Positions 716 to 64,000 of a DNA stretch of 64,000 bases are shown here, in pieces. Below the pieces are notes generated by a model, which was not told where the DNA came from, did no database searches, and saw only the letters and a program-made list of their open reading frames with translations. Made by a program: the position numbers and the translations under genes. Every line of letters starts with the position of its first letter. The stretch's first letter is position 1. This DNA is from Blasia pusilla (lineage: Eukaryota), in contig CM114271.1 of assembly GCA_050084515.1 (NCBI GenBank), forward strand, positions 24,366,001-24,430,000, written 5' to 3'.

Positions 716-2065
716 ACGGATTAAGTGGTCTCCTTGTGTCTAGTTTTAGATTCAAGCGTGGAAAAACGAGGTTAGTTTATGACCCAATCTGATCCACTTG
801 TTACTCTCTTATAAAGATTTTTAGCATTTCAAAGAGAAAAACTTATAAAGAAACTAATAAAATTTTAGAAGAGAGGAGGCGGATTCTCTCTTCTCTTTTT
901 AAGAGAGACTCTCATCTCTTCCTCTCTTCCTCTCCTATACCATCAAACTAAAAAACTCTACCGTGTGCCAACCATGTGGCACTCTCTGCACATTCAAGTC
1001 CTCATTCAATCAACCTCATGTCTCATCATATTGATGGGTTAAGGCTCAACCCATTCACATTTTAGTTTGGGTGTCTTGGGCAATGGGCCACTTGAAAATC
1101 CTACTCCTTTAATAGCAATATTCACATAACAAGCCTCTATGTCAACTTGTCGAACTCCATCAACCATCCGAATGTCTGATGGTTGGTGACAAGTGCAAAT
1201 AGACTACCCAACAAGTAGCATATGAAATGCATGTATCATACTCTTGACTACAACTAAGCACGTGCAGTCTTCCTTATACAAGGTCTATCTTGCCTCCACA
1301 ATATTTTTTGAGTGGCTAGCATATGCATATGTCAATCTAAACTCCTTTCCTAACCAATTGGTAAAATATTGCTCCTAGTCCCAACGTGCTCTAGTCGATA
1401 GACAACCGGATCAACTTCCCTTTGATAGATTTCCTCAAAATAGGCATCGACACCAACATGTCTTTCAGCTATTGATCATATTCCCACTACCACTCTGGTC
1501 CATTCTTGCTAGGAAGATAAAATATGTGTATTCATGTCATCCATGTACGTAACATCTCCTCATCATGCCAACAAGCTCCCAATGCATGCGTTTGATTTGG
1601 AGATGGCTTATGACTGATCTCATATACATCTTGGTTGAGTCTAGCTTCTATGTTGATTTATCATATGGAAATAATAGTCTCGCAATGTGAAAGCTCATAT
1701 AGCAAGCTTCCCAATAAGGTTGTTGGACTCCATCAACCAATCACATGGTTGGTAATTTGTAATGAGAGTGAAGGGATTTCTAAACAAGTAAGATTTGAGA
1801 TGTGCCATGTTTTGCACTATAATTAGGCATACTCTCTCATGTGAGTTATACTCCATATTCATAGGCTTGTTTGAATGTGTAGCATATAGGAGTATAAACT
1901 CTCTATCCTTGCCATCATATTGAGTGAGTTCCGCTCCAAGTCCCAACATACTCCGATCCATGAGCAATTAGAAAGGAACCCCCCAAAATAATCTCCTCAA
2001 GATCGGCATAGACATCAATATATTCTCAATAAATTGGAATGCTTTCTCCTATTCATCACTTAGAT

Positions 2066-6060: not shown

Positions 6061-7691
6061 AAAAGATTTCAGAGATTGAATATCATAAATGAAGAAAAAA
6101 CACACGTTAGAAGCATTGAGTTTGTACATAATACAATTATTTATGCTCTATGTAGCATTTCATTATGATTATGAACAGAAATATTTTACCAACCAGTGCA
6201 AGATCATGATGTCAATGGATTTCCCAAAGACTATCAGATTCCTACCACATCCTATACCTCCTAGTTCCATTGCATTGAAGGATCTATTTCAAGTTTTTAG
6301 AAAAGAAAATAGAAATATGTAGCGTTTAGGCTAATTTTGAGCTTCCATGATAGACAAGGTTGCACGGAAAATAGACAAGTCCGAACATGTCCTCGGACAT
6401 GCCCGACCTATACCCAAGCCCGCCGTTTAGACCCGGGTTGACGAAGCCCGCATCCATGCGCGGCCCATGGCACGCCTGCAACTAGGCCCGCAGAAGGGCT
6501 TGGCCCCCATTTAACAAACTCAGGCCCACGGGCCTACATCACGAACTCGGTGCGAGCTCCTCTGCATGCCGTGCTATGGTTGTGGGATTTGTGAGCCTAG
6601 GTCTATGCGGCGGGCTGGGGTGTGGGCCGTAGGTACCCAAGCCCGCATGGAAATTTCCGTCCATGGGACGAACATAAGTCTACGGACAAGGACATGTTCG
6701 CGAACACAAAATTTGATCATATGTAACCATGGCATCATAACCATGGCATATGATGGTGGATCCAGAGTCCCATTGATGCATCTTGAGGAGATTGAAACAC
6801 GGAAAGGGCGGACCACAAGGGGAACATGATAGGATTGCAAAAGGAGAGTAGACGCCATTGGAACTTTGGGTGAGCGACTAGGTTGGGTACATCGTAATAT
6901 TATGGAATCGCAATTTACACATTTAAAAACCCAAGAAAACCTAAATACCTGCAAATATGTGCATATGTGATAGAGATATTATACTCATATATCTTAACCA
7001 AGAGTTATGATGCGAGACTGCGAAAGGAAGATCGAGGAGGCACACGAACAAACTCAAAAACTATTACAAAAAAACCAATTAGGAAAATTACACAATACTC
7101 CTTAAATAATATGCCTATACACACATCGGCTCCCAAAATTCAATCCAAATGTTGACTCCGAAATCGACTACAATACCTAACATCATTGAAAAACCCTAAA
7201 CGCAGCGTCGTGCTTCCCACTTGCCCCACCATTCCGTTCAACGGAAATTTCTATCCATGTAGACCTATAATAATACAAAGATTAACTTTGCCCTATTCCT
7301 ACACCCCTGCAAATTCAGCTTCCCAACCTCCCATAAGTCTCATCTCAAGATCTAGTGCCCCCCCTTTCCCCCCAAATCGGAAAAATCGATTCAAACTCTC
7401 TGAAGCTGCGAGAGCTCTATCACTTTTGTTGTTGTTTTGTTGTATGGACTGTGCAGTTGAATAACGAACAAGAGTGGAACATCACAATCAAGTTGGAATA
7501 AACAAATAACAAAATTTACAAATATAACAAGTATTCGTGTCCCATGACCTTTAAGTATAATCCTCTATTTCTGATCAACCCTCAACGTTCGATGTTTGGT
7601 ATGCTATAACGCTAACCATGGTCTCATTTGGCATGGGCATCTGCATCGCGCTTGTAGATGACATGATTATGGCTATCTTATTATTGTGTAA

Positions 7692-7941
<250 letters not shown>

Positions 7942-10900
7942 TGCTAGTTCCTGCACGATTGATGAAACCTAAACCCTAAATCGACTAGGAATTCCTTTTG
8001 CAATCCAAGTTCTAAATGCTGCTCCAAAGTTCTCCACTATCAAAATAATGAGAAATTATCAAACTGGGGGGAATAATACTCTTAAAAATCACATTTTGAG
8101 AATGGAGTTACAAAAGATTTAGAAAACCTAAATGCATCATGGTACTTAAAAGAAAGGGAGAGACAAAGGAGCCTAGGCAGCTTCTCTTGCAAATTCTCGC
8201 CCTAGAAGCCTCTCACAAACCCTAAATGCCACATAATTGTGGGCATTACTCTTATAATTTCCATGTCATTATTTCAAAATTCTATGAAATAAAAAATAAT
8301 TTCAATATTTGAAATATTACACGCACTAATTTTGTCTTTGTTATAAGAGTTAGTTCCGCATACTTTAGTGCATGTGACTTCAAAAGGATTTTAGTTTAAG
8401 ACACACCATACTATCTGATTAATTAATATAAAATAAATCTATGTGATATTAAATTATCGGAAGGAAAATAAAAGGACACCGAAATTTTTATAGTCTAGCT
8501 TAGTCATATTTTGTCTCCATCCCGATCCTGAACTCCCCCCTTCTGTGAATTCACAATAGTTAGTGAATGTGACTCCAACATCTTGTAAGTAATTCGATCA
8601 AAAGTCAATTTAGTGGTTTGGGAGTAGCAACGAGTAATTCAAACAAGTTCTAGTAACATAAATTACAAACACTGTGGTTTAAAATGGCCTCTTTTCTACT
8701 AATGATTTTGTTTTTGAAGAGTATGATGTCATCGAAGTATCACCCGAAAAAATCCAAACATGCAAAGATCTCATCCAAGATTCTATAAGACTCTATTGGG
8801 TTATTTTTCAATATAAATGATATAGAAATTTTGAATGGTATAAGCATCTTGAAAATCCAATGAGTTGAAGACCTATGTTTACCCAATAGGATCAAAGAAC
8901 TTCTCATGGATGGGCATCACCTACTTATCAGCCTTAGTTTTCCGATTGATAGGTCGAGAATCTCCACACATTCTTCTATCTATCCAATTTCCATGCACAC
9001 TCTTCTATGCAAGCATGACTGTTGCAAATGTACATTCTTGATATGACATCTGTTATAGCCCTTCCTCAATCAAATTCAACCTCTTATTTGAAAAAGGTCT
9101 CTCTCGATATTATTTTACCTATAGGACCTTTGAAAAATCAACATATCACTAAATAACTTAATACAAATCCATGTATCCTTCAACATACCTAGGTCATACA
9201 TGCTAAATGGAAAATTAGCTCCTACGACTCCTTATAAATAGTTGTATCTGACTAAACCGCTCCTCCTTTGTCAACTTGGATTAGATCTTTGGCTCATAAA
9301 TCTCAATCGTGACCTCTGTAGGAATCTTTAGGATGGGGTTTGGCTATTAATATGCAACCTCAAAAATACCCATGGAGCACGATTCGTCATCTACAACCAA
9401 CTCAAACATCTATACTCTTGTAATTGCTTAGAGATCAAGACGATGCACCACGTCAATTATAGTAGATGCCATCTCTTGGTGTGCTTATATCACTTACTAT
9501 TAATTCTATGTATATCTCTCTCACTCTCCTTTAGTCTTTCAATCTATTCTAGGCTAATCCTTGGACACTTCCTACATTGTCCCAATAGGAAATTAGCTCA
9601 CAAGTATAAGATAAGTGATATGTCTAGACTTGATTCGATGTTGCTCAATTTTGTCTAGATTGATAATCCATGTCAAACTACTTATGCACATTGCATAACA
9701 TAAAACTTGACGTTAAGATTCCTTTGAAAATGATGGGACTTCTCTCATATTTAAAGGAAATCCTATTGAAATCTCTCACTCAGAGGCATTGGGCCCCGCC
9801 AATTAATTGCTATGCTTGATTATCCAAAATCTAGCAAGGTTTGCCTTCCTTGAAAGCATGAGAGGTGGGGAGAATGAAACTAAATATGTTTGGTGTTGCC
9901 TATGACATGCCTACTCTATTCACCACTATCAATCGGGCTCAACCATCAGGCCAAACTTCTTGTGATCTACACCAAGGATCCATAATGGAATCGACCAAAA
10001 ACTGGGAAGGTTGTTGCATCCTTGTATATCCCATTCTCATGATCTCCTATTGCGACGAGTTCATCCATCATAGGCAGAGATGATGTCTTTGCAAACCCAT
10101 ACTCCCTACATCCATAAATCTTTCCCGCCGAATCCACCCGCAAATCTAGGGTATTCTTGTCATCACTTGTATTTAAGAGTCATCCAGATATGGTTCATTT
10201 TTTCACAATGTATGATGATGAGTGAGATAGATGTTGTATAAAATATCGTAATAACTGCATTATTTTCCTAAACAACATGGTTTCCGAGTCTCCAACATCA
10301 ACCCGATGTCTAGATCCTATGCCCCTAGTAGTGAGATAGCCTTAAGCCAAGAACTTTAGTAACCTTCCACATGCATTGTTGTACTCACTAAGAGATCTAG
10401 ATTTTGTAGCCTCGACAATTTAATTTTTTTGTGCTAAATCCTTAAGAAGATTGCAAAAGTTCATAGGGAATCGCTATAAATAAATGCATAATGGCTATTT
10501 AACTAGCATACAATCCTTATTTTTATTCTGTATTTATAAGACTTCTATTCATAAACTCATAATCCATGAATAAAATTCTAGGGGTCGGGATAAATTTAGA
10601 ACATCTTATAGCATGTTCTCTATACAAGTTGCCTAGTTGATCATATTGTGTAAGAATGCCCTAAATGCATGTGGAAGATTTTTTTATATATGAAAATCAC
10701 AACACATAAATGCATCGAAGACTCATACATGTGTCTAAATTTATCAATCTTTCAATCGATAACTGTTACATTTTAATAAAGTATTCAATAGATTGTAAAA
10801 ACAAAACAAACACAAATTCTTCTCATAGACTTATTGTCCTTACATATAGGGAATCATATATGATAATGATCTTTGTTTGAAACATTTATCCTTACTTGAA

Positions 10901-11801: not shown

Positions 11802-12102
11802 ATCCATTGATTTCAATAGGTCTGCTGAAGTAGGATTTAACACTCGTTGTGCTATCTTCCTCGTGTACAAGCGTAAAGTAGTTTATAGGGATTTTATAGT
11901 TAGGAATTATGGGGTCCGATGTTTCAAAGAAGTGATTGCCTTGACACTTCCATTTGTGATACCTATCATGAGAGAATGGAGAGTATACATAATAATTATG
12001 TATTGAAAAATAAGAACTTCTTAGAGAGTTCACCTTGCATCGACCACGTCTGCCGCTGCTAGAAGGCCTGCCCTTACTCGAAGAAAGGCTCTCGATACGA
12101 CA
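11802..12102 (-). mobile_element. Terminal fragment of the LTR family seen at 61929-63205
   Basis: Reverse complement of ~61929-62225. Ends ...ACGACA at 12102 and abuts copia sequence. Confidence 0.85.
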
Positions 12103-14171
12103 ACGCTCCATCTGAGCCTATTCCATCTCTAAATTTTTTTGTTAAGGAAGAGAATATGATAATAAACCAAAAGACTTTGCTTATAAATTTCCCAAGTACT
12201 ATTGCAGGATAAGGAGAGGTTCTAGATTCTTTAGTTAAATTTGTCAATCCATGGCCGGGAAGAGTACGTATTAAGTCTCTTGACACTAGTTAGAGCTAGA
12301 CCAGATGTGAGAGGCATTCACCTCTGAACAACAAATTTGTAGATCAAGTAGCGTCACATACGAGATCACACATCCTATTCATAGATTCATAAATGAAAAA
12401 TTCCTTATAACACATGATGCATATATGATGACTGCCCTTAAAAAATAAAAGGAGCAAAGTTACTTTGAAGAAGTTGCAAGCAAGGTCGAATGGATTGAAG
12501 CTATGGAGGAAGAGCTTGCTGCATTAAAATATCAACAAACCTAGGAGTTGGTTGATATATCTTATGGTAAAGAAGTTATTGGTTGCAAATGGGTTTACAA
12601 AGTCAAGCGCAGTCAAAATGGTATAGTGAACAAATACAAAGCCACATTGGTAGCCAAGGGCTAATAATATGGCATTGATTATGAGGAGATATTTAGCCAT
12701 GTTGCAAATATGGCGAGTACGAGAACATTGGTTGTAGTTGCAGAAAGTTAGAAATGGAGATAACATTACATAAATGTCAAAAATGCCTTCTTGAATGTAG
12801 ATCTACACGAAGAGGTACATATGACTCAACCACCTAGATATGAACATCCAAAGTTTCCATTTCGCATATGCAGGTTGAAGAAAGCTCTCTACGGGCTCAA
12901 ACAAGCTCCAAGAGTTTGGTATGGCAAGATTACATACGTCCTATAAAAGTTTGACTTTAGGGTATGTGATTCTAACTCCTCGTTATACATCTTGAGAGGA
13001 AAACATCATACGGTTATCATTGTGTTGTATGTTGTTAACCTCTTGATAAGTGGGAGTACTAAGGATATGATACAACAAGTTAAGCTAAAGTTACAAACAT
13101 AATTTGATATAAAGGACTTGGGAGAACTCAAGTAATTCCTTGGTGTTGAGTTTATCAAGGTAGGAGAGAGCATGTGGTTATTATAACGACAATATGCTCT
13201 TCACATGCTTTCAAAATATCGTATGATGACTTGTTAGCCAATCTCTACACCGTTGGACCATAGTATGAAGGTAGGAGTGGATGAAGGAGAGTTGCTTGCA
13301 GATTCTAATATGTAGGGGCATATGGTTGGAAGTTTGATCTATTTGACTATAACCAGACCAGACTTGAGCTATACAATTAGCCTAGTGAGCCAATTAATGC
13401 AAGAAGCTCGAAAACCTCACCTTGATGTTATGAGGAGGATTATGCGGTATCTAACATTATCTTTTCAATTCGGGTTTTGACTTGAATCTTCCCCGAGTTT
13501 ACAATTATAGGGATTCACACATGCTGATAGGGTAGGAAGCGTGTCTTATACACACTCCACATCTGGTTATTCATTTACCTTGGGAAGCGTAGCTATAAGT
13601 TGGGCTTTAAAGAAGCGACCTACATTTGCTTTATCTTCAATAGAGGCTGAGTACACAAGAGCAACCAATGCAGCATGTGAGGCGATGTGGCTTCATCGAT
13701 TACTTGTTGAGATTGATGTTATTAACTTAGGACCTAGTGTAATATATGCAGATAATATTAGTAGCATCAAGCTTGCTCATAACCTTGTGTTTCATGCTCG
13801 AACAAAGCAGGTTGAGGTGGAGTATTATTTTATCAGAAAGAAAGCGCTTGCCAGAGAAAATGATCTTGTGTATATATGTACACATCAACAAATTGTTGAT
13901 ATCTTTACAAAGGCATTGTGTAGAGATAAGTTTGAGATGTTTAGAAATGATTTAAGTGTTAGATATATCGGTATGAGTTTGAGGGGGAGTATTGAAGAGA
14001 GAGTTATAGTCAAGCTCATCGGACAATCGAATTGCTATATTTGATACTCATACGAAGTTGGGAAGCTTATTCTTCGTAAGTTTGTTAAGTGCGAATATCT
14101 TGTTCTTCATGGTGGTGTGTAAGTGGGAGAGTCGTATCCCACCAGTTATGCTTGTTTATCAATTTTCTACA
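12103..14171 (+). mobile_element. Truncated Ty1/copia element (INT-RT linker, RT, RNaseH, internally deleted 3' LTR 13990-14171)
   Basis: Homologous to 38065-40256. RNaseH ORF 13541-14044 (STSGYSFTLGSVAISW...FHARTKQVEVEYYFIR). PPT GAGGGGGAG at 13981-13989. Many stop codons. Confidence 0.92.
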
Positions 14172-35293: not shown

Positions 35294-35797
35294 GGGAGGA
35301 GAATATCACTTGAAATTCTTGGAATTTGAAGAGAGAAGAGAGGTAAGAGAAGGAACAATTTCAGTTTGGGAGAAGGAAATTTTACTCAAAGCTCAGTGGG
35401 TGCAGATTTCGAGTGGAGCTTTGACGATGATAAAACTTTGGAGGTATTTTTTAGGGCTTTTCCGGTTGATTCAACCGTCTGGATCCGTTTCGGCTAGATT
35501 AACGCCTAAGGCTACTTCTAGCCTTCTTGTAGAGCTCGTCAAGAGATTTCCAACATATCTAAAATCGCTCGATTCTGACACTCTAAGCTCCTGCAGTAGC
35601 AATTTCACTGTAGGAAAGTACAATTAGTGAAGAAAAGGTGTGCAGTTTGCTCTCTAGAGGCCAAGTTCGACTAGTTCTTTCATACACTTCATCAATTTTG
35701 GCAAATTTTGGGTCGATTTCTGTGTAGGAGTGGTCTATGCTTCACTTAGAGCAGTAGAAAGCCTGAAATTACATTTTTGTGAGTGAAATCGTTTATC

Positions 35798-38700
35798 ATG
35801 GAGTATTCCTCAACAACAATCACATGCGAGAAGCTAGACAAGCATAATTACAATGTCTGGAAGTTTCGCATGATACAATTTCTCATGGGTCAAGAGCTAT
35901 GGGAGCTTGTCACAAGTGATGAGGCCAAGCCAGAAGGTGACTCAACATACTTGAATGTTCGCGCTTGGAACAAACGCGCAAGGCAAGTAATCCACTACAT
36001 TTCAATAACGATCAATTCGCCAATGATAGGTCACGTCCAAGATGTTGATACTCCGAAGGAGACTTGGGATGCATTGGAAAAGTTGTTCCAGACATCTACA
36101 AAGGCCAGAAAGCTTCAATTGAAACAAAAATTGAACGAAGTGAGGAAAGGATCGCAGAGCATCAATGATTATATTTTAATTATCAGACGTATTGTTGATC
36201 AGTTGAATAACATTGGAGTGACAATAGAAGATGATGATCTGATTTTATTCACTCTTCAAGGCCTTCCAAAGGATTACAAGTCCTTTGAGACCTCTTTCTC
36301 TGTGAGAGAGAAGTATCCAACCTTTTAAGAGTTAGTCCCTCTGATAATCAGTCAAGAGATGCGTCTAGTAGGCAGCGGTAGCTAGTCTAGTCTGCAAGAG
36401 AGTGGGCTATTTGCACGTTATGGATCAAAAAGAGACAAGGGTCATGGCAAAAACTTCCGTGGTCGTGGTGGATATCAAGCATATGGAGGAAGAGACACTT
36501 AATATAACGTCACTCAATCAACTACGAACCAGTACCAGACATGATCACAAGGTGATGATAATGGAAACCATTGCGTTCGAGGTCAACAGTAGAGGGTCCT
36601 TGGATCTTGCAATTACTGTGGGATAAAGGGTCACTATGCAAAGTTTTGCTTCAAGAAGAAGACATATATGAGAACATAAGCCTTACAACAAAAAAACTAT
36701 GTGGAACAACAATACCAAGAGCAGTACCAAGAACAAAAACATTCACAAACATATCATATCTTGGTCATGACTCATTATATGGGAGCCATGGTCAAGAAAG
36801 ACTCGACAGCAGATTGATACATTGACTCTAGAGCATCAAATCACATAACCTCACAAGCTAAATGGTTAAATAGTTTGCAGTCGGTGAAAGATCTTGCAAT
36901 TATGCTCATAGGAAATGACACTCAACATCATATCACTCATACCAGTAAAGTTCCAATAGCATCAAATAGTCTTCGTGCTTTTGGAAATATTCTTTATGTT
37001 CCTACCATTGCAAAAAACCTAATCTGTGTAGGACAGATAGTAGAACAGGATTATCAAGTGAAGTTTAACGTAGATGGTTGTTTCATTGAAATAATGGAGG
37101 ACCAGATTACGATAGCCACAGGAACTAGATCTGGCAGAATGTTCAAATTAGATGTTTCTATGCCAGAGATTCAAACATAAATGTATGGTCAAACCGGCCA
37201 ACAAGTCACAAATCTAAATATGTGGCATAAAAGAATTGGACATATGAATCTTCAAAGATTACAGAATCTTTCATCATCTAATATAGTAATAGGACTTCCT
37301 AAATTAGCAAGTCTCGCTATGTTAGAGGTATGTCCTGCTTGCCAATTTGGAAAACAAGCTAGATTTCCTTTTCCACAGCAAAGTAGAAGAGCATCCAGGA
37401 TATTGGAGTTGATGCACAGTTATGTGTGGACAACATCACAACATAACCTTAGTGGTTTCCAATACTTTGTTTCATTTATTGATGACTTCTCTAGATATAT
37501 ATGGGTATACTCTCTGAAAGCCAAGTAAGAGGTATTCTCAGTGTTCCAAATATTTAGAGTTCTAGTAGAGAAACAGATTGGAGAACACATTTTGAAATTG
37601 CGTTATCATGGAGGAGGAGAGTATCTTTCAACAGAGTTTGATGACTATTTACATCAAAATGACATCCAACGTCAAGTGACTTGTTGTTACAATCCACAAC
37701 AAAATGGAGTGGCTGAGAGGAATAATTGACATATTGCTGAAGCGGCACGAGCTATGCTGATTGAGAAGAACATGCCTAAGGTGTATTGAGCAGAGGATAT
37801 AGCATGTGCACACTTATTAATCAACCCAACTCCAACAACAAGAGTTCATGATAAAACTTCATTCGAAGTCTTCACAGGAAGTATTTGGCTGTATTTGTTA
37901 TGCTCATGTTCCTTCTGAGAGACGTCAGAAATTAGATCCCAAGTCTGAAAGATGTATCTGCATTGGCTATGCTCATGGAACTAAGGGATATAAGTGCTAC
38001 ATTCCATCCTCTAGGCAGCTTATTATTAGTCGGGATGTTGTCTTTGATGAGCTAAAGTCATGGTATGCTCCAACTGAGCCTATTCCACCTCTAAACTCAT
38101 TTGTTGAGGGGGAGAATATGATTGTAAACCAACAGACATTATCTTCAACTTCCCCAAGTACTAGTGCAGGATGAGGAGATGTCCTAAATTCATCAGTTAA
38201 ATCTGTGAGTCCCTCGATGGGAAGAGTACGTAATCAATATGTTGACACTAGTCAGAGCTCGGATCAAGTGTCAAAGGCATCTACCTTTGAACAATAACTT
38301 CGTAGATCAAGTAGAGTTATACATCCAATTCATAGATTCATAAATGAAGGTTTCCTTGCGACACATCATGCATATATGATGACTACCCTTCAAGAACAGG
38401 AGCCGAGTTGTTTTAAAGAAGCTGCAAGTAAAGTCGAATGGATTGAAGCTATGGAGGAAGAGCTTGTTGCATTAAGACATCAACAGACATGGGAGCCGGT
38501 TGATATACCTTTCGGTAAGGAAGCTATTAGTTATAAATGGGTTTATTAAATCAAGCGTAATCAAGATGGTACAATTAACAAATACAAAGCGAGGTTGGTG
38601 GCTAAGGGCTATCCACAACAATATGGCATCGATTACGAGGAAAAATTTTAGCCCTGTTGCAAAGATGGCAACTACGAGAAAAGTGGTTGCAATTGCAGTA

Positions 38701-39957
38701 AGTAAGAAGCGGAGATTCTATCACATAGACGTCAAGAATATCTTCTTCAATGGAGATCTATACGAGGAGATGTATATTACTCAACCACCTGGATACGAGC
38801 ATACCAAGTTTCCATTTTGCATATGCAAGTCGAAGAAATATCTATACGGGCTCAAACAAGCTCCAAAAACTTGGTATGGCAAGATTACATATCTCATACA
38901 AGAATTGGGTTTTAGGGTATGTGATTCTGACTCCTCGTTATATGTCTTGAGAGGACAAGATCATACGATTCTCACTGTGTTGTATGTTCACAATCTCTTG
39001 ATTACTTGGAGTACTAAAGAAATTGTATAACAAGTCAAGCTTAAGTTACAAGCAGAATTTGATATGAAGGACTTGGGAGAACTCAAGTACTTCCTTGGTA
39101 TTGAGTTTATCAAGGTTGGAGAGAGCATGTGGTTACTACAACGACAATATGCTCTTCCTATGATTTCAAAATATGGTATGACGGCTTGTAAGCCAATCTC
39201 TACACCTTTGGACGAGAGTGTGAAGCTAAGAGTGGATGAAGGAGAATTGCTTGCAGATTCTTATATGTACACGCACATGGTTGGAAGTTTGATCTATCTA
39301 AGTATAACCATACCAGCTTTGAGTTATGTTGTTGGCCTAGTGAGCCAATTTATGCAAGCACCTCAAAAACCTCACCTTGATGCTGTAAGGAGGATTATGC
39401 GGTATGTGAAATTCTCTATTCAATTCGGGCTTCAATTCGAACCTTCTACGAGTCTTCAATTACAGGGATTCACATATGCTGATTGGATAGAAAGCGTGTT
39501 TGATCGACATTCCACATCCGGTTATTCATTTACCTTGGGAAGCGTAGCTATAAGTTGGGCTTCAAAGAAGCAACCTACAGTTGCTTTATCTTCATTAGAG
39601 GCTGAGTATAGAGGAGCAACCAATGCAACATGTGAGGCAGTGTGGCTTTATCAATTACTTGTTGAGATTGGTGTTGGTAACTTAGGACCTAGTGTAATAT
39701 ATGCAGACAATATTAGTAGCATCAAACTTGCTAATAATCCTCTGTTTCATGCTCGTACAAAGTATGTTGAGGTGCACTATCATTTTATCAGAGAGAAAGT
39801 GCTTGCAGGAGAAATTGATCTTGTGTATATAGGTATAGATCAGCAAATTGCTCACATCTTTACAAAGGCATTGTCTAGAGATAAGTTTGAGATGTTTAGA
39901 AATGATTTAGGCATTAGAGATATCGATATGAGTTTGAGGGATAATATTGAAGATTGA
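35798..39957 (+). pseudogene. gag-pol: Copia gag-pol, disrupted by stops and frameshifts
   Basis: Gag (KLDKHNYNVWKFRM). Zn knuckle CNYCGIKGHYAKFC at ~36608. PR IDSRASNHIT at ~36821. INT (WHKRIGH...CPACQFGK, FIDDFSR, PQQNGVAER). RT ([22 protein letters not shown]). RNaseH (STSGY...FHARTKYVEVHYHFIRE). Confidence 0.93.
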
Positions 39958-42900
39958 GTTACAGTCAATCTCATGAGACACATGAATTGCTATATTTGGT
40001 ACTCATACGAAGTAGGGAAGCTTAATCTTGGTTAGTCAGTTACGCACGATTATCTTAACTAGGGTTAGTTAATCATATTTAGTCTAACTCGAGACTATGG
40101 TTAAGCTTAGGGTTAGGGTTACTTGTACATACCCTATATAATTGAGAAGGGGACCAGCCTCCACTGATTCTCTCCTTGCAAATTTTGTTCTCCATGGTGG
40201 TGTGTGAGTGTGAGAGCCGTTTCCCACCAATTATGTTTGTTTAGTAGTTTTCTACATGGTTTAGGTGAGAAACTTGGGAAGAATGGTCAACTCTTAGGGA
40301 AGAGGCTTATTAGGGAGATGCTATGCATTTGAGAAGACTCAACCTTATTAGTGCTTGACGGCGTCTCGGCTACCTATGGAATGTGCAACCGGTTGAGTCT
40401 TTGGGACTCGAACTAAGTCTTCCCCTTGCAAAGTTCAAGGTCAAGGGAGCTTCAAGGTGAAGCTAGGGAAAGTGGAGGAAGGAATCTACAATGCAAGGCT
40501 AGTGTTCAAGGGAGTGTATGCATGAAAACTAAATTTAGAGTAGATTTTGGAGCAATAAAATACTTTTTGAGGTGGGATTTGGCTCTTTCCAATCATTCAT
40601 TAAGGAAGACTTTGTTTTCTTTTTTTTTCTCAATTATTTCTTTTTGTTTAGAACTTCTTCTTAAGGGAAAACAAATAGAATACTCTAGACCTTACTCATC
40701 TAAATGTTATTCAATAGAGAAACAGTGTTCATACCCCGAAATTATACAGACTTTGCTCCACTACAAAGATAAACTAGTTGCAAAGTGAGGAGAAGACTCT
40801 TGGAAAGTTGGGAGGAAAAGTGAAAAGAGCGGTGTGGAGATGAGAGGGGAATTTATGGTTGATCGAGGTTCCATTTTATGCAAGTCTTATACAAGTGCCT
40901 TGCGAGTGACTTTGAGTATACTTAAACTTATGAGTTGTATGAGTTTTCTGAGTCTGTTGTGTCTCTTAGCAGTTGGAAGTTACAATACACATGACTCGCA
41001 CTTTGCAAGTAATTTATAAGGCACAATTACAAATCTCAATGTGAGTCTCTTGCATCTAGCGGAGCTTGCAAATATGTAGGATCCACAACTTATTTGCAAC
41101 TGACTAGAAACGTTCAGAATAATTGCAAAATAGATTTGACTTGTATTGGACACGAAAATGTCTCAAAGATTGGCAAAGTTGTTATGCATGTATTACGGTA
41201 CTAGAAGAGGTTGTTGAGAATGGGTATCATCTTTGATAGTTCCGCCCATGATTTTACTCCTCTAGCCTATGCACATGCCAATTTCGCTCCTTCTAAAGAT
41301 TATGGACAATATATTCGAGGATTTGCTCGTATCATGGTAGGAGGTGCAATACATTGGGCCTCAAGGAAGTTCATAGTCAATCCATAATCTGCTATACAGT
41401 CTACTATAAAAGTTGAATATACAACTCTTAGTGAGGCTACCAAAGAAATACTTTGGATTCAATAATTACTTGAGGAGATTAGTTTTCTGCAACAATATTT
41501 GAAAATAATTTATGAAGACAATCAAGTTGCTATTCAACTACCAAATAATTTGTACTCCAATTCCAAGATCCAAAATTTAAAACTTAAATTTTCTTCATAT
41601 CAAAACACATTGAACAAAAAAATACTCATCTTTAAGAATGTAGATCGTCAATTTAGGCCATTTATTTTTTAAGTTGAAGTCTTTCTAAAGCTCAATATTA
41701 TTCTTTAATCCAAATATTAGGATGCAGGAAAAGCAATTGAGTGGGAGATAGGACACTTTCCTAGTAGAAATCAGGAAGTTTTTTTCTCATTTTTCCAAGT
41801 ATATTATTATAGTGTCATGGGAAAGTTAGATAAACCTATTGTAGATAAAGGTTTCAAGATTGACTAAATGTTGGTTTAGCAACTATCTAATGTTGCTACT
41901 CTTAGTGGTTCTCTATCTAGCCACTAGGTTGAAGTGGGGTAGTATATTTTCAAGAAAGGTTTTAGGCTCAACTAAATGTTTTGTTAAGGAACTATCTAAC
42001 ATTGCTACACTTAGTGGATCTCTATCTAGACACTTGGCCATAAAATAGCGTTGTAAAATCAAAAGATTAGCTTTTCTCTAGCCACCATCCAAACTAGTAT
42101 ACAATATGGGGCTTAGATAAGTATACTCTACAAACTTATTGATTTCTCAAACATTAACATACTACGTGTAGAGAGGGCATTACTATTCCCAACAAGATTT
42201 TCTCCTTTGGAGAAACAAAAAAATCATCCGAATAAGACAATCCAAATATATGACATATGTTGGTGATATCGGATGTCATTTATTTCTCCAAATGAGAGAA
42301 TGAAAAAATAAAAATAAGAAAAATAAAAAGAAGCAACGACAAGGAAGAATATTCAAATCTATAATTTTCTCATAGAGGACATGGATTGCTCAATTGGCTA
42401 TTTAGATTTAGGCAAGCATCATTGAGAGGTTTGATTTTTTTTTCTTAATGTGCCCATGTGTGTTCAAGGAATGGTTTTCTTTTGCTTTTGTACCCTTAAA
42501 ATGTAGACATAAGTCATGTATGGTTTATAACATGCTCAAGCCAATGGACTTTTTTAGGCTCCCTCAAACCATGGGAGACATTAGTTTTAGACAACCCTTG
42601 TCGATAGTCATATTTATGTAAGTGTTGTTGGTATCATTTTTTCAAAATTTGAAACTAGATGTAGGAAGTTTCCCCCTTTCCTTCTCCCTTTAACTAGTCA
42701 TGGCCTTAGGAATTCATAAACTCTTAAAATCCCTGTACGTACTTTGGTTGGATGGATTCTCCGATCCACTTGTATTCCAACTAATAAGCTGCCCATGCAA
42801 CTGGGACTCGTGTCCGAGTCCACTGCCTTAGGATTCAGTCAAGGATGTGAAGACCCTACACTCATATGGATGCAAGTTTGCATCGCCATGAGGAAGAGGT

Positions 42901-56618: not shown

Positions 56619-56757
56619 ACATCTGGGACACATCGATGCATCATCCCTGAGGAACCCTAGTGAGAGATGACGTCAAACATGCCATATGCCATCCCCTCAA
56701 ACATCCATCATAAACTAGCATAGTGGTTGCAACACGGGCATAACCACATAACATACA
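56619..56757 (-). pseudogene. PHD finger (C4-H-C3) at integrase C-terminus
   Basis: CMLC...MLVYDGC LRGWHMAC LTSSLTRVPQG, then a frameshift, then CPRC. One Cys has become Tyr. Confidence 0.85.
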
Positions 56758-56999
56758 TCGCAAGTCTCCAGGAACTACTGCTAAGCTCAGATCAACTCTG
56801 CCATCAATGTTAGGAAGGTGAAATGGCACACAGTTACGCACATGGTCCTTCCAAACCATACCATCGCGTCCCTCCAATAAGAGAACACGAAATGGCAAAA
56901 TCTCATGCACTCTCAAGATGGTGCGCCCTGTAGTCACATCCAACGTCGTGGCTGCCATTTTCTACAAGTAGACATAGTCTCCCCAATGAAACCTCCGAA

Positions 57000-58203
57000 T
57001 AGTCAGTCGATAACCACCTCCCCAAATAGTCGCATACCTCAACGTATCCCAATGTTGCGCAATTGCCAAGTTCTTAAACGTCATGGGCATCACTCTCTGA
57101 AACAACTCAACCCTCTAAGACCATCCTCGCATCCATACATCAAGGTAATCAAGGTTCAACATCTCGCTAACATCTTGACGAATGGCCGTAGGTAAATCCG
57201 GCTCTCAACCTTAAAGTAGCAAGTACAGTGAGAAAGACCCTGAGGATGCATGCGTGCTGAATCTGTATCCCATTGCCAACCAAGGCAATTGGAGATCCCA
57301 ATCTTGTAAGTGACCTCTATGCAAGCCATACTTGCGCAATCCTCTCTTCACCATCTCCACAACCCTCTCCGCTACTCCATCTGCCTCAAGATGATCTTGC
57401 GAAGTGGAACGGTGGTCAATGTATGCATGATCACACGAGGCTGAAACTCCCCATGAAACTATATATCCAAGTTTTTCAACACCTCAGTAGGTGCACCGCA
57501 ATGACTCAGCACTCGATCTAGGAAGGCATACGCTACTCCCTCACTTGCTCTGTCAAGCAATGCAACCAACTCTAGAAGTCGTGAACTCTAGAACTCTAGA
57601 AGCGGTGATGGTCGAGCACTTCGAGAAGTGCTCGACCATCACCAACATATAACGAATATAGCGCTCTGTCAAAGATAAAGGTCTTGCAAAATCCAAACTC
57701 CATATATAACTTAAATCCATGATCGAAAGTGGATGCAACTGTGGAGTTGGAGCATTGAACGATGCCCTGACCCGATCACAAACTATGTACCTGGCAATAA
57801 ACTATTGAACGTCAGTCTGCATGCCTCGCCACCAATACGGCATCTGGAGCAAGCTATACATCCGCTTCACTCCAAAATTCCCCAACTCCTTGTGGGCATG
57901 ACGCACCAAACGTGCTCTCTATGAAGGATGAGGCACTACTCGTACTCTACCATCCTCCCAAACTTGCAACACATGTGTCCCCTCCCACCAGAATCTTTTA
58001 GCTCGATGTAGGATCTGATCCCGCTCTCTAGCACCCACTATGCTCGCGACGGTGCCAGTACGCAGATACTCCAAGACCACTCCATCGTCGTGAATATCTC
58101 GGCCACCTGTTGTCTCCTCACCAACCCCTGGATCTAAGGACTGTTCATCAGATCTCGCCCTCGAAGTCTCAACACTCAGATTCTGTAAAGCCAACAAGCC
58201 CAA
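57000..58203 (-). pseudogene. Gypsy integrase (HHCC + core), disrupted
   Basis: AHKELGNFGVKRMYSLLQMPYWWRGMQTDV...CDRVRASF...LHPLSIMDLSYIWSLDFARPL...MLVMVEHFSK. Confidence 0.85.
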
Positions 58204-58377
58204 ATAGGCTGACGCGTGCTATCCTGGCACCAACTCCTCATCACTCTCACCATTCCAACGAGCTCGAGTCGCATCTCGCTCACTCAAGCATGAGTTACGG
58301 CTCAAACCATCTGCATCCTGGTTGAGCGTCTCAAATCTATGCACCACCTGGAAATCATACTCCTACAACAACATGGC

Positions 58378-59719
58378 TCACCTCGCAAACTTCCATGTAA
58401 GCTTGTCGGACTCCATCAACCACTTAAGTGGTCGATGATCAGTAATACTGGTAAAGAGGTTGCCGAATAAATGACACCTGAAATGTGCAACATCCCACAT
58501 TGCAGCCAAGCACTCACCCTCATATGAGCTATACTTTGTCTCTGCAACGTTGTTCGAGTGACTAGCGTAAGCCACCATGAGCTCTCTACCCTCATCGTCA
58601 TGTTGGGTGAGCACGGCTTCAAGCCCCAACATTCTCCAATCTGTATGCAACAGGAAAGGACACCCCCTGATTGGTCTCCTCAATATGGGCACAGATGTCA
58701 ATCTGTCCTTGACCAGCAGAAATGCTATCTCTTGCTCATCCCCCTAGGGCCACTCCCGACCCACCTTGGCCAGCAAGGTCAGCGGCTTTGCAATCAAAGT
58801 GAAACCCTTGACGTACTATCGATAGAAGTTTGCCAATCCCATGAATGCACAAACTCGACTCACATCTGTAGGGCGTGGAATGCGTGAAATAGCCTCTACC
58901 TTTGTCTGTTGCACACCAAGGACCCTTTGGGTATATCGTATGATCCCCGTACTCAATTTGGTTGTAGAAGAACTTGCACTTGCCTAGATGTAGCTTTAGC
59001 CCATGTAACTGCAATCGTCGAAATACCTCCTCTAGATGTTGCTCATGCTCCTCAACTGTGGCGCTAAAGACTATGATATCATCAATATAACACCTCGCAG
59101 AATCCAAACCTGCCAAGATCCTATCCATAACCCTATGAAACTCAGCCGAGGCATTCTTTAACCCATATGGTAAGAACCGCCACTGGTACAATGAATCCTT
59201 CTTGTGAGGATCGATGTCCCAAAATTCCGTCTTCTGCCTCTCCTCCAATCTGATAGGCTGCTGATGGTATTTGGCTCAAAGATCTAAAGAATTGAAGACC
59301 TTTGCATGCCCAATAGCATCAAAGATCTCCTCAGGGATGGGCATGGCATACCTATGGGACTTCGTATGCGGATTGATAGGTCGGTATTCTCCATACATCC
59401 ACCTATGCGTCCAGTTGCCATGCATATCCTTCTTGGCGGGCATGATAGTGGCAGATGCATACTCTCCATGCGACATCTCTACTAGTCCTACTCCAACCAA
59501 GTCCTGGCTCCTACTTTGAATTAGAGCCCTCTCCATGTCACTGTACTTGTAGGGTCGTCGGAAGATTGGCGTGTCACTCGACAACTCAATGTGGATCCCT
59601 GGATCCTTCAGCGTACCCAAATCATGCATGCTAAATGCAAAACAACTCCTATAACTCTTAAGGAACTCATATATCCGGCGCCGCTTTCCTCTTGTCAACT
59701 TGGGCTCCCAAGTCTCCAT
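58378..59719 (-). pseudogene. pol: Gypsy RT and RNaseH, disrupted
   Basis: PIFRRPYKYS, YRPIN...YAMP...FNSLDL, LPYGLKNASAEF...YIDDIIVFS. RNaseH LHTDW...VAYAS...YEGECLA...ITDHRPLKWL. Confidence 0.93.
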
Positions 59720-60059
59720 TGTGACTATGGTAGGACTCTCCGATGTGGGTGTCGGTGGTTGCTATGATGCAACCTCGTCTCGAACAATAGAACTCGATTG
59801 CTCCCCTGCAACCATTTGCAAACTTTGATCTCCACATGTAGTACTCGGAACCATGCTCAATGTTGTGGCTATCATCTCCCGACGTACCCGCAAAACATCC
59901 CAAGAAGTCCAAGGGTGTCTCTCCCAATCACCCTTGGTGTATCGATCACCTCGGGTCTCACCCCCTTCCATTGCCTTCACCGTCTTGGTAAGCATGGGCT
60001 CACCAACGCAACAACTGTAATCTGTCGCAACCTCAAACAACATTGCTCAGCCACTCCTA

Positions 60060-60930
60060 AGCTGAAAATCCATGTCCAGGAGTTCAGGTCTATCGCCTGA
60101 CCCAAGACATGACATCGTGACGCCTCTAAGAGTGATATATTGTTGTCAGTCTTGTGGGGAATCCCATCGCTTGCTCTCGCTCATTGGCGTTAGGCTCCAC
60201 CAACAGCTGTACCTGGTCATCCCAAACTAAGCCAGGTCCGGCTTCCTTGAATGCATAGGAAGCGGGAAAACTCACCAATGTGGGAAAGGCTGCTCTTTGC
60301 ATGCCAATCCTGTTGACCACAGTCAACGACGGTCGATCATCGTGCATCACTACATGTGATTGACGACCTGGATCCAGAATAGGATCCACCAACAAATCGG
60401 AGGGGCGCTCCACTCTTGCATACGCCCTCCACAAAACCTCATGTGGCACCAAGTTGGTCCACCAAAGACACGGGCGATGCGCTCGTGAACCTACACTCGC
60501 CGCATCCAAAAACATTGCTAAGCCGATCCATGCGCGTACTTTGAGACTGATGCTCATGTAAGTGTCGCAAGATCCGCATCATCTCCCAAAACAACCTAGA
60601 CCGAGAGTCAGCTAATCCACTACCCAATCCAGCACTAGACTGGCCCTGACACGGCCAACCAGCAATGACCAAGTCCATGATCCCTACCCACTCCAAGTCC
60701 TTCACCCCCAACAATGAAATGTCCCTCGGTAGGGAACTCTAGTATCCCTGAATTTTGGACGTAGATAACAAGGTGGGAAATCAGAGGCGTAAGTGCGCCA
60801 TATGCTGACATGAAGCACATCTGGCAACCTCATCAACCTCCACGTGTAGGTATTGCAGCACATGCACTTCTGCCTGCAAAACAATAGCTAAACCAGTGTT
60901 AATCTCTCCAAAGAGACCTAGCATGCGAAT
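60060..60930 (-). pseudogene. C5 cytosine DNA methyltransferase domain, DNMT3-like, inside gypsy pol
   Basis: Motif I IRMLGLFGEINTG. Motif II YLHVEVD. Motif IV DLVIAGWPCQ (catalytic PC). Motif VIII LDAASVGSRAHRPCLWWTNL. Motif IX EREQAMGFP. Motif X VLGQAIDLN at ~60105-60080. Motif VI (ENV) is lost in a deletion at ~60545. Confidence 0.9.
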
Positions 60931-61270
60931 ATCCTCCTCTAGGATGCACCAGACAATCGGGGTGGTGTTTAAAGGGGTCATAGTAGCACTCCTGGCTACC
61001 TCGGGTTCCTCTGATCCGTCACGCTCCATGCGGTCTGCATATGCTCAGCGGCTAGCGTCAAAGCTCCTTAGTCGAGCCCCAAACCGGCACCTCTCCTCCA
61101 CGGACTAATGGGCCTACCATGAGACTCCTCTCCATAGAAATGTCAAGAACGAGAGTCTCCTCTGCCTGGACATATCCCTCAATCAAATCACTAGGCCAAA
61201 TGATGGCACTGCTAGATGCTGCTAAGGTCGCCATCTCTCCTGGTCGTCGCTCGATCACTCCACCAATGAA

Positions 61271-61798: not shown

Positions 61799-61928
61799 GC
61801 ATAGGCTCCAAGAGCATGTCCATCACCTCCTCTGCAATCACCCTTAAGTGTGAAGCAGGAACACCAACTCCATGCTCACATAGCGTAGCGGTCAGCTAGA
61901 AAACCTTGGCCGGCATACCTCCCAACGT

Positions 61929-63205
61929 TGTCGTGTCGAGAGCCTTTCTTCAAGTAAGGGCAGGCCTTCTAGCTACGGCAGACACGGTCGATGCAAGATG
62001 AATTCTCTGAGAAGACCTCCTTTTTCAATATAAAATTATTATGTATACTCTCCATTCTCTCACGACAGGTATCACAAATGGAAGTGCCAAGGCGATCACT
62101 TCTTCGTAACATTGAACCCCGAAATTCCTAACTATAAAATCCCTATAAACTATTTTACGCTTGTATACGAGGAAGATAGCACAACTAGTATTAAACCCTA
62201 CTTGAGCAGGCCTATTGACGTCCATGGATTGTTATATAAGGACATACAAAGTACAATCCCATGTCCTTTCATATGTGACGATAGGAAGGATCACCGGAGT
62301 TGGAGATTGAATGATCTGGTTCATGAACGCCTCCCCAAAGTGATAAACTACATAGCGAGTGAACCTGTGCCTATCTACAAAGAGTATCTTGACATGATAT
62401 GGATTAAGGAAAGGAAAGTCGGACACAACTCGTGCTCCACCCCTATCCATGCTTGACAGACATTTTCTACTCTCCTCAACAATGGGTTTTGGCGGAGTTA
62501 TTCTCCGAAGAGGGGTAATCCACTCTCATTGGGAAAGTAACAAGCCAAAACATTCACTATTTTAATATGACTAAACTCCTCTAAGGTGACAACCCTCTCA
62601 TCTCCACACACACATCACACTCTAGAAACCTCTCGAATAATAGACCATGGTCAAGTTACTCTCCCAAGAGGGGCGATCCGTTCTCATTGGAAGAGCAAGC
62701 AATCCCAAAGTCATACACTCAAGAGTGACACGAAAGACTCAAGATGTGGAATAGAAGGTGATGAACCCTTGAAGGTCCCTCCTCTTTATATACTCACAAG
62801 AGATCCACAAGAGTACGAAATAGAGCTAATCGTATCTTGTGCCACATGGCTTCCTCTCAAGGCTTAGCCAATCGCATTTTGACACAAATAGATTTCCTCT
62901 TATCTCTTCCAAAATATCCTCTTTTACCCACTTGATATTTTCCAAATTACCCCAACTAACCTAGCCACCAACCAAGCCTACTTTTGCTTTTCATTAAAGC
63001 ACCGACCTCACTACTTTACTTTTATAAAGTCATCTTTTATTTATTACCTCTTTTCTAAAGTTAGGCCCGCATAAAAGAGGCACCATAAAGAGGTTTAAAC
63101 ATGGGGATTTATTTTTCCTAAGCTAATTTACTTAATACTAATAAAACTCTATCTAACACTTAACGAGGAAGGAGTTTACACACTGGCTGATTTTACTATA
63201 CGACA
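61929..63205. mobile_element. Solo LTR (~1277 bp) nested between gag and PR of the gypsy element
   Basis: Inverted termini TGTCGT...ACGACA. Flanks ACGT/AGGT. A partial second copy lies at 11802-12102. Confidence 0.8.
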
Positions 63206-64000
63206 AGGTCATAACATTGGAAGCAGAAAATAAAGGAGTGGGGCATACAACAGTGGTTGCCCCGAACAACGTGCTCGACACATGCTCCTCCTGAACATCA
63301 GCAATAGGAGTCATCGCACTTGCTTCTCCCATCGCCCTCCGTGCATGCACACCAACAATATCACCAACACTCCGGGAACTCTGATCAGGACCCATCGATG
63401 GGGTCCTCATCGCCTCGGACAATGTGAAAGACTGAGGAAGCCTTGTCTGTTTCCTAGCTTCCCCTCGCTGTGGATCCAACTATGCGGCTACTCCATACGT
63501 AACAACTGCGGTGGCCTCCATCTGGGCAACCCCGCACATCCAACCAGGATCCTCCATATCTCTAGCTGCTCCATAACACGTTGATGCCACGGATCCGACA
63601 TCGAGTAACCTAAATGCCATGTCGGAAATCTACTGTTGTAGTTGTTGTATCTGAGCAACTATCCCAACCTCACGCCCGACGTCTCTCTCAACGCGTCTAG
63701 GTGGTGGAACTCTACCTCCTCCACGGGCAACTCAAGTTCTTTGTTCCCCAACGGGACCACTGGGTGCACGACCTCTAGGCCCACCCAGACCGGCAACTTG
63801 CTCTAGTGTCCTCTTTGGCCCTCATTCTGGACATACCTCACGGTGCAAGCTGAAACACGTGTCACGTGTGTGACTGTACCTCTGAAAATAGTCACACTGA
63901 TAACCTCCTGGTGCAGCACCATCTCCTCCTTCATGTTAAGGCACGCGTCCATGACCCTCACAAGTGCAATGATGCTGGTGATAGGCTCCACCACATGCCC
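63206..64000 (-). pseudogene. gag: Gypsy gag C-terminal region with zinc knuckle
   Basis: Minus-strand frame YQCDYFQRYSHTRDTCFSLH at ~63903-63844, a CX2CX4HX4C knuckle with one Cys changed to Phe. Confidence 0.75.

What the first reader, a model, noticed from the sequence alone, without database searches (positions are those of the whole stretch)
8705..10350. Second, ancient copy shows the MTase-RT fusion is a family trait and retains the missing motif VI
Seen: the minus-strand frame 10290-10056 reads DSETMLFRKIMQLLRYFIQHLSHSSSYIVKNEPYLDDS*IQVMTRIP*ICGWIRRERFMDVGSMGLQRHHLCL*WMNS. It aligns with DSRSRLFWEMMRILRHLHEHQSQS[deletion]VRAWIGLAMFLDAASVGSRAHRPCLWWTNL in copy A. YIVKNEP lies where motif VI (YxxENVP) is expected. 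GPNASE*EISIGF (~9795-9760) matches EPNANEREQAMGF, and RT follows downstream. Inference: two highly diverged copies in 64 kb suggest a long-lived, probably abundant family whose ancestor had all catalytic motifs. The ORF track does not reveal this copy.
Basis: partly seen in the sequence, partly recalled or inferred. Interest (0 to 1): 0.75.

Follow-up and report, generated by a model that had tools for sequence, protein, structure and literature searches.

The report
Plant retrotransposon carrying a DNA methyltransferase
This is a long-dead copy of a plant jumping gene that carries its own DNA methyltransferase; in intact relatives from seed-free plants the enzyme ends the capsid-protein reading frame just before a conserved, probably leaky, stop codon, so it would be made far more abundantly than reverse transcriptase.

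Summary
The homology is real. Window 10382-8716 (minus strand, copy B) is a decayed fragment of the same Ty3/Gypsy element as copy A (63995-56305). The details need correcting: B's motif VI is degenerate and split by a frameshift, and B itself has lost catalytic motif IV. Intact natural relatives settle the family question. Marchantia, Calypogeia, Riccia, Sphagnum and metagenome copies carry a DNMT3-type domain with the PCQ and ENV motifs, under purifying selection (omega 0.13-0.17). It is not a plain MTase-RT fusion. The layout is gag-PR-DNMT3, an in-frame stop, then RT-RH-IN-PHD. The stop stands in 39 of 42 readable junctions among 64 loci, and at the same column in both window copies. Across unalignable subfamilies it is followed by CAR-YYA-type codons (CCA, CTA, TTA, TCA), the plant-virus type I readthrough signal. 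Inferred: the DNMT is made at Gag level, packaged, and methylates the element's cDNA; RT comes by readthrough. The closest known system is Klebsormidium KnitGypsy-Dnmt3, which shares the split repeats but is described as one ORF. My literature searches found no land-plant members and no such stop. Readthrough and enzyme activity are untested, and so is abundance in this genome.

The parts
10308..10382 (-). Copy B: remnant of DNMT motif II-III region; upstream limit of detectable homology
   Evidence: tblastx HSP, 52% over 25 aa, to copy A 60765-60691
10291..10307 (-). Copy B: site of a deletion of about 64 nt that removed motif IV (PCQ)
   Evidence: 17 nt here against 81 nt in copy A
10191..10212 (-). 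Copy B: degenerate motif VI, split by a frameshift in an A run, Lys at the Glu position
   Evidence: codon print-out and tblastn against P0014 and P0007; three-way alignment
9572..10202 (-). Copy B: DNMT motifs VIII-X, many stops, further frameshifts
   Evidence: profile hits 53.6 and 45.6 bits
9341..9349 (-). Copy B: DNMT/RT junction, TAA TAG CCA, aligned with TAG CAA CCA of copy A and of L004
8716..9343 (-). Copy B: N-terminal part of RT down to the catalytic-aspartate region, with an internal deletion; truncated
   Evidence: tblastx HSPs 50-55%; alignment gap
63168..63995 (-). Copy A: zinc-knuckle end of gag (the rest of gag and the 5' repeat lie beyond the window)
   Evidence: tblastn with P0014 and L004
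61061..61786 (-). Copy A: aspartic protease region
   Evidence: 46% to P0014; Pfam Asp_protease_2 in relatives, below the curated cut-off
59998..60987 (-). Copy A: DNMT3-type domain with PCQ (60657-60646), motif VI deleted at about 60540
   Evidence: PF00145 E 3.7e-8; 57-59% to P0014, whose residues 1012-1034 are missing
59756..59764 (-). Copy A: conserved in-frame stop and readthrough-type context, TAG CAA CCA
56625..59755 (-). Copy A: RT, RNase H, integrase and C-terminal PHD finger (decayed)
   Evidence: RVT_1, RT_RNaseH, Integrase_H2C2; collinear with L029 ORF2 and P0017
56305..56461 (-). Copy A: polypurine tract and 3' 'B' repeat ending in GACA; the natural 3' end, abutting a Copia RT fragment
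   Evidence: 87% over 30 nt and 76% over 58 nt to L045

Best explanation
Copy B is an old, truncated, methylation-decayed insertion of a Ty3/Gypsy lineage of seed-free land plants that captured a DNMT3-type C5 methyltransferase; copy A is a younger dead insertion of the same subfamily. In intact members ORF1 encodes Gag-protease-DNMT3 and ends at a conserved UAG; RT-RNase H-integrase-PHD follows in the same frame (shown). The hexamer after the stop fits the type I readthrough signal CAR-YYA, so a minority of ribosomes would read through to give the full polyprotein (inferred). The DNMT would thus be made at Gag level, in excess over RT, be carried into the particle on Gag, and most likely methylate the new cDNA before or around integration (inferred; neither activity nor substrate shown).
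For: Intact locus L029: ORF1 of 1369 codons, one TAG CAG TTA, ORF2 of 1047 codons, with Pfam DNA_methylase, RVT_1, RNase H, rve and PHD. Junction: 39 stop, 3 sense (2 TAC, 1 GAG), 22 unreadable of 64 loci. In the largest subfamily 29 of 32 copies have TAG/TAA and none CAG/CAA at that column; the next most stop-rich of 701 columns reaches 29%. Contexts by lineage: L003-type TAG CAA CCC, L004/L042 TAG CAA CCA/CTA, L029/L030 TAG CAG TTA, L053 and L061 TAG CAA TCA, L038 TAA CAA TCA, L036 TAG TAG CCA, copy A TAG CAA CCA, copy B TAA TAG CCA. The second codon gives Pro, Leu or Ser but keeps YYA in 8 of these 9; CAR-YYA makes up 0.28% of 4567 in-frame codon pairs. CARYYA after UAG is the type I signal (PMC5382211, PMC2194720). 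8 of 9 further gene calls (P0188-P0196) and Marchantia/Calypogeia proteins P0003, P0005, P0014, P0016, P0030 end at the same point. DNMT3 type: best PDB sequence and fold matches are DNMT3A/B/C (model pLDDT 95.7). Purifying selection: omega 0.13 for L029/L030 (RT N-part 0.06, protease 0.11) and 0.16-0.17 for L004 against the L003-type. DNMT and RT-RH trees agree.
Against: No experiment, and no RNA or ribosome data. The commonest subfamily has CAA CCC, not a perfect CAR-YYA, and an ATG at codon +3. Three copies have a sense codon at the junction and 22 of 64 loci could not be read. Many loci are near-identical copies from related samples, so only about nine lineage-level contexts count, and these share ancestry. 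Marchantia P0011 and Riccia P0006 gene models join DNMT to RT by skipping the junction. A sister lineage (P0034, P0062, P0210) has DNMT and RT in one ORF, so the stop is not needed by all relatives. The KnitGypsy DNMT showed no activity in yeast, which the authors call inconclusive (PMC5890265). In Tca2 the local sequence around a gag-pol stop did not direct readthrough in a yeast reporter (PMC2194720). DNA for the named Marchantia and Calypogeia proteins was not seen. Both trees are quick searches and copy B is a long branch.
Confidence: 0.7

Rival explanations
1. Same element and same conserved stop, but RT-RH-IN is made from a spliced RNA that removes the stop (Ogre-like; Ogre splicing is recalled), possibly using the UAG as the acceptor AG.
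For: Gene models P0011 (Marchantia) and P0006 (Riccia) jump the junction. The DNMT tail and the first 30 post-stop codons are only weakly constrained (omega 0.54 and 0.50). The L003-type has a short T run before the TAG.
Against: T content of the 30 nt before the stop is only 0.23-0.33 in six contexts. An acceptor would not require CAR-YYA after it, and no CAG variant occurs in 32 copies. The two gene models skip different amounts and their support is unknown.
Confidence: 0.13
2. ORF2 is translated by reinitiation or from an internal promoter after the stop; the CAR-YY context is coincidental protein constraint.
For: In-frame ATG at codon +3 in 31 of 32 L003-type copies and at +5 in L030 and L036; a junction promoter was found in Tca2 (PMC2194720).
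Against: L029 and L004 have no ATG in the first 40 codons after the stop; in L029 the first Met of ORF2 lies well inside RT. The second codon changes amino acid while keeping YYA.
Confidence: 0.07
3. The expression scheme is as proposed, but the DNMT acts non-catalytically or on another substrate (binds element RNA or DNA in the particle, or methylates host chromatin at the insertion site) and does not mark the cDNA.
For: KnitGypsy-Dnmt3 DNMT was inactive in yeast. Many sister-group proteins have E-C-Q in place of P-C-Q. Gag-level abundance suits a structural role.
Against: Motifs I, IV, VI, VIII, IX and X are kept and align with DNMT3A; the catalytic C-Q, E-N and R positions are at least 90% conserved in 48 sequences.
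Confidence: 0.25
4. The stop in the window copies is ordinary decay (C-to-T change of a Gln codon) in a plain DNMT-RT fusion.
For: Both window copies are full of decay stops; CAR columns turn into stops in 81 of 793 cells among decayed relatives.
Against: The junction column has 29 of 32 stops and no Gln codon; it is the only stop in the intact L029 coding region and is unchanged in a contig of an independent study (run X2, whose four differences all lie elsewhere).
Confidence: 0.02

Closest known systems
KnitGypsy-Dnmt3 of Klebsormidium nitens (de Mendoza et al. 2018, PMC5890265)
   Same: Ty3/Gypsy element with an intronless, non-rearranged Dnmt3-related domain under purifying selection, and DIRS-like split repeats (A-coding-B-A-B).
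   Different: Published as DNMT within the Pol ORF, in the same ORF as RT and RNase H, from an alga, inactive in yeast. Here DNMT closes the Gag-PR ORF before a conserved stop, and members occur in liverworts, mosses and this plant. The K. nitens sequence was not retrieved, so direct orthology is untested.
Type I stop-codon readthrough (UAG-CAR-YYA) of tobamo-, beny- and pomoviruses; stop-separated ORFs of SIRE1, MuLV and Tca2
   Same: In-frame UAG with CAR-YYA-type hexamer between two coding regions (signal as described in PMC5382211 and PMC2194720).
   Different: SIRE1 uses suppression between pol and env, MuLV between gag and protease. Here the stop lies after protease and an accessory enzyme and before RT. 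That SIRE1's signal is CARYYA is recalled; the paper was seen only as a citation.
PHD-bearing Gypsy elements of Chlamydomonas (Gypsy-7a_cRei, REM1; PMC9940879)
   Same: PHD finger and LTRs made of subparts.
   Different: No methyltransferase is listed for Gypsy-7a_cRei in the passages read; relation by RT phylogeny was not tested.
SymbioDIRS-Dnmt3 and EpiLTRs (PMC5890265; bioRxiv 10.64898/2026.05.21.726589)
   Same: Retroelement-borne cytosine methyltransferase; SymbioDIRS-Dnmt3 methylates CG in yeast.
   Different: DIRS elements use a tyrosine recombinase; EpiLTR DNMTs are sister to DNMT4 and come with DAM and chromodomain.
Host plant DNMT3 (PpDNMT3a/b; PMC6453930)
   Same: DNMT3-type catalytic domain.
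   Different: Host genes carry a C-terminal DUF3444; none was found in L029 ORF1, which is embedded in a retrotransposon.

Membership tests
Ty3/Gypsy LTR retrotransposon | Domain order gag-PR-RT-RH-IN | tested here: met
   Copy A and L029; copy B keeps only DNMT and part of RT
Ty3/Gypsy LTR retrotransposon | TG...CA ends, polypurine tract, 4-5 bp target-site duplication | tested here: met
   Of 5 loci with both ends matched (L005, L006, L020, L032, L045), 3 have an exact 4-bp duplication, L005 has 3 of 4 and L020 (internally shortened) none. Copy A has the tract and 3' end; its 5' end is outside the window
Ty3/Gypsy LTR retrotransposon | Two identical full LTRs | tested here: not met
   Ends are A-internal-B-A-B (L005, L045) or A-internal-B (L006, L032)
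KnitGypsy-Dnmt3 | Dnmt3-related, non-rearranged, intronless DNMT with catalytic residues | tested here: met
   PDB and Foldseek best matches DNMT3A/B/C, ahead of DRM2 and bacterial enzymes. No tree with host plant DNMT3 was built
KnitGypsy-Dnmt3 | DIRS-like split direct repeats with Gypsy domains | tested here: met
   L005, L045, and 3' B-A-B in L016, L019, L058
KnitGypsy-Dnmt3 | DNMT under purifying selection | tested here: met
   omega 0.13-0.17 between active-lineage pairs; 0.5-0.9 among decayed copies of one subfamily
KnitGypsy-Dnmt3 | DNMT in the same ORF as RT and RNase H | tested here: not met
   Conserved in-frame stop; met only by the sister lineage P0034/P0062/P0210
KnitGypsy-Dnmt3 | Monophyly with the K. 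nitens sequences | not testable with these tools
   No Klebsormidium-named protein came up; the main supplement was too large to read
Type I readthrough site | UAG followed by CAR-YYA, downstream ORF in frame | tested here: met
   Exact in L004, L042, L029, L030, L053, L061 and copy A; CAR-CCC in the L003-type; one change away in L036 and L038, two in copy B
Type I readthrough site | Measured readthrough by ribosomes | not testable with these tools
   Needs a reporter assay or ribosome profiling
REXdb plant Ty3 lineages (Phygy, Selgy, Chlamyvir, Tcn1 and others) | Placement by RT-RH-INT phylogeny against reference elements | not testable with these tools
   No reference library; 'PHD' and 'methyltransferase' occur 0 times in the main text of PMC6317226

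The most novel reading that the evidence does not exclude
An old green-plant Ty3 lineage, present in liverworts, mosses and probably vascular seed-free plants, uses a virus-type leaky stop to load an active DNMT3 into its particle at Gag stoichiometry and so integrates pre-methylated DNA. The same DNMT module sits at a second position (between RNase H and integrase) in a larger sister group, so DNMT3-bearing Ty3 elements would be a widespread, long-retained class and a possible extra source of de novo methylation in these genomes.
Probability: 0.3. Interest if true: 0.82.

Novelty: new variant of a known kind. Interest (0 to 1): 0.62.

Why it matters
Retrotransposon-borne DNMT3 was described from one alga and from dinoflagellates, and what it does is open. 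If this holds, the family reaches land plants, including the model liverwort Marchantia polymorpha (P0014, named Mp_4g09160 by NCBI), where it can be tested directly. The position of the stop gives a concrete prediction: methyltransferase at capsid-protein level, RT at a few percent, which points to methylation of the element's own cDNA in the particle. It also warns that DNMT counts in seed-free plant annotations include transposon-derived genes. The decayed window copy alone is only a fossil witness.

Tried and rejected
Whole-genome copy count: no genome held. Viral contigs: 62 pattern matches, none a relative. Pfam on copy B, three frames each of two regions: no family; it is detectable only through relatives. 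Host identity: the GeBP-like gene gave 2 weak hits, one from Physcomitrium at 22% identity; host not established, and 'fern or lycophyte' is only my impression. Sequencing runs for L029: no RNA holder listed, which is no evidence on expression. Laying 4 runs (contigs only): no GT..AG skip across the stop among the 15 of 16 joints shown, but none of the runs is on record as RNA, so this does not test splicing. RNA structure after the stop: z from -3.7 to +0.1 in six contexts, not consistent. dS is saturated for most between-subfamily pairs. The careful DNMT tree did not finish; the quick tree was used. Other Ty3 RNase H fragments at 941-2054 have no DNMT signal and were not counted as a third copy. 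Three look-ups of earlier scan findings returned nothing.

Full report
Observation. The window is repeat-rich plant DNA (GC 40%, Copia fragments, a GeBP-like gene). The stretch 10382-8716 on the minus strand (copy B) aligns collinearly with 60765-59066 of copy A in nine tblastx HSPs, combined E 1.5e-52. For 9750-10300 alone the best HSP scores 72.5 bits against a maximum of 26.3 in 100 shuffles. So the second copy is real. It does lie where intact relatives have YILENVP. A keeps motif IV and lacks motif VI. No whole genome is held, so copy number was not tested.

Age of the two copies. In a three-way alignment with L004 (1525 columns), B has 303 private changes spread evenly over codon positions (110/101/92), with C>T/G>A 132 against 44 reverse changes. 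A has 155, enriched at third positions (43/36/76). Two other references gave the same pattern. B therefore decayed neutrally for much longer than A. A and B group together in the DNMT tree (SH-aLRT 91; B is a long branch).

The family. The C-terminal DNMT frame of copy A found 16 proteins among 249 candidates, named from Sphagnum troendelagicum, Calypogeia fissa, Riccia sorocarpa and Marchantia polymorpha at 53-65% identity. A profile found 64 metagenome loci and 509 clusters at E up to 1e-30. Of the 166 proteins then held, 89 have the DNMT between RNase H and integrase, 19 end after protease-DNMT, 5 join DNMT to RT, 52 show DNMT only and 1 protease only. Closterium proteins are among them. 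Locus L029 is intact: ORF1 of 1369 codons (gag, protease, DNMT), one stop, ORF2 of 1047 codons (RT, RNase H, integrase, PHD). Its DNMT matches DNMT3A/B/C best by sequence (E 5e-8; profile 8e-26) and by fold (model pLDDT 95.7; Foldseek E 4.5e-20, TM 0.71), ahead of DRM2 and bacterial enzymes. Of 28 proteins that I picked from this clade, 25 have E-N-V/I at motif VI. Nei-Gojobori omega for the DNMT is 0.13 between L029 and L030 (RT N-part 0.06, protease 0.11) and 0.16-0.17 between L004 and the L003-type; most deeper pairs are saturated, and decayed copies of one subfamily give 0.5-0.9. Quick DNMT and RT-RNase H trees agree: a clade with the stop (RT support 99), a sister clade with DNMT and RT in one ORF, and a distant group with the RNase H-DNMT-integrase layout (22 of 103 proteins of that group were sampled for the DNMT tree).

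Ends. L005 and L045 read A (about 330 nt), internal region, polypurine tract, B (115 nt), A, B; L006 and L032 end at the first B. Three of the five loci with both ends matched have an exact 4-bp target-site duplication. The shorter form is most simply a recombination between the two B repeats (inference). Copy A ends in the same tract and B repeat at 56305. Copy B has no recognisable ends.

The junction. Both window copies have a stop between the DNMT tail and RT at the same alignment column: TAG CAA CCA at 59764-59756 and TAA TAG CCA at 9349-9341. Among the 64 loci, 39 have TAG or TAA there, 3 a sense codon, and 22 could not be read (14 without an ORF2-start hit, 7 too decayed, 1 of the other layout). 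Many loci are near-identical copies from related samples. Within the largest subfamily 29 of 32 have a stop and none a Gln codon, while the next of 701 columns reaches 29%. Across lineages whose tails cannot be aligned, the next codon is CAR in 7 of 9 contexts (TAG in the other two, one C>T away) and the second is CCA, CTA, TTA or TCA in 8 of 9 (CCC in the L003-type). CAR-YYA makes up 0.28% of in-frame codon pairs in these ORFs. Eight of nine further gene calls and five Marchantia or Calypogeia proteins end at the same point; their DNA was not seen. A contig from an independent study spans the L029 junction with four differences, none at the stop.

Mechanism. Shown: layout, conserved stop, its context, DNMT3 fold, purifying selection. 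From established knowledge: UAG-CAR-YYA is the type I readthrough signal of plant viruses (PMC5382211 and PMC2194720, passages read), and stop-separated ORFs set Gag to Pol ratios in MuLV. Inferred: Gag-PR-DNMT is the main product, readthrough gives the RT-bearing polyprotein (about 0.75 given the stop), and the DNMT is packaged at Gag level and methylates the cDNA (about 0.45). Against: the largest subfamily has an imperfect hexamer and an ATG at +3; two gene models skip the junction; a sister lineage has no stop; the K. nitens enzyme was inactive in yeast; Tca2 shows that a conserved stop need not be read through by local sequence. No RNA data were available.

Comparison with what is known. 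KnitGypsy-Dnmt3 (PMC5890265: parts 1, 3 and 4 of 7 of the main text, passages, and a term search of three supplementary files; the main supplementary PDF was too large to read) shares the DNMT3 type, Gypsy domains, split repeats and purifying selection. It is described with DNMT in the same ORF as RT, a feature not met here, and its sequence was not retrieved. I therefore call this a related variant, not a member. Two later papers from that group mention Gypsy-DNMT3 only as 'streptophytes', citing 2018 (passages of bioRxiv 10.64898/2026.05.21.726589 and PMC12344493); their supplements were not seen and might list land-plant sequences. Eight searches (listings only) and passage searches in PMC6317226, PMC6453930, PMC11982613, PMC9940879, PMC2829016, PMC9477723, PMC8594673 and bioRxiv 10.1101/363937 found no report of land-plant members, of the stop, or of the RNase H-DNMT-integrase layout. 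The library lacks most subscription papers, and repeat databases were not searched. The SIRE1 and REM1 papers were seen only as citations; Ogre splicing and the motif numbering of C5 methyltransferases are recalled.

Verdict. New variant of a known kind; interest 0.62, carried by the land-plant range and the testable readthrough junction, not by the decayed copy itself.

Noticed in passing
P0017, P0022, P0032 and others; L051:2-4729: A large sister group has the same DNMT between RNase H and integrase, with a C-terminal PHD and no stop; 89 of 166 proteins held. Many have E-C-Q in place of P-C-Q. Hosts unnamed.
   Followed up: partly
P0034, P0062, P0210; Closterium P0050, P0064, P0116, P0212: A sister clade with protease-DNMT-RT in one ORF; the Closterium gene models either end after the DNMT or join it to RT, so the state of the junction there is unclear.
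   Followed up: partly
L005, L006, L032, L045: Two integrated forms, A-internal-B-A-B and A-internal-B, both with 4-bp target-site duplications; the short form has no terminal direct repeat and would be missed by LTR finders.
   Followed up: partly
window 47275-48945 (-): Uninterrupted ORF with a GeBP-like DNA-binding domain (PF04504, E 1.3e-10), probably a host gene; only two weak database relatives.
   Followed up: partly
window 52121-54463 (+): Non-LTR retroelement-like ORFs: weak RVT_1 hit, followed by a region that looks by eye like a restriction-like endonuclease (no Pfam hit).
   Followed up: no
window 12105-14101, 35783-36328, 38067-40256, 55297-56304: Copia gag and RT fragments, 81-83% alike; copy A's 3' end abuts one of them in mid-RT.
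   Followed up: no
window 61926-62229 and 11802-12105: An insertion between gag and protease of copy A (about 63160-61980) includes 300 nt that are 88% like 11802-12105.
   Followed up: no
window 941-2054 (-): Two further decayed Ty3 RNase H fragments, about 49% like L004 ORF2, with no DNMT signal nearby.
   Followed up: partly
window about 7690-7940: Long GA dinucleotide run about 770 nt beyond the end of copy B.
   Followed up: no
run X6 laid on L029:3600-6200: Very high summed contig depth (up to about 59,000) with many diverged variants, suggesting a high-copy related family in that unnamed organism; run type not on record.
   Followed up: no
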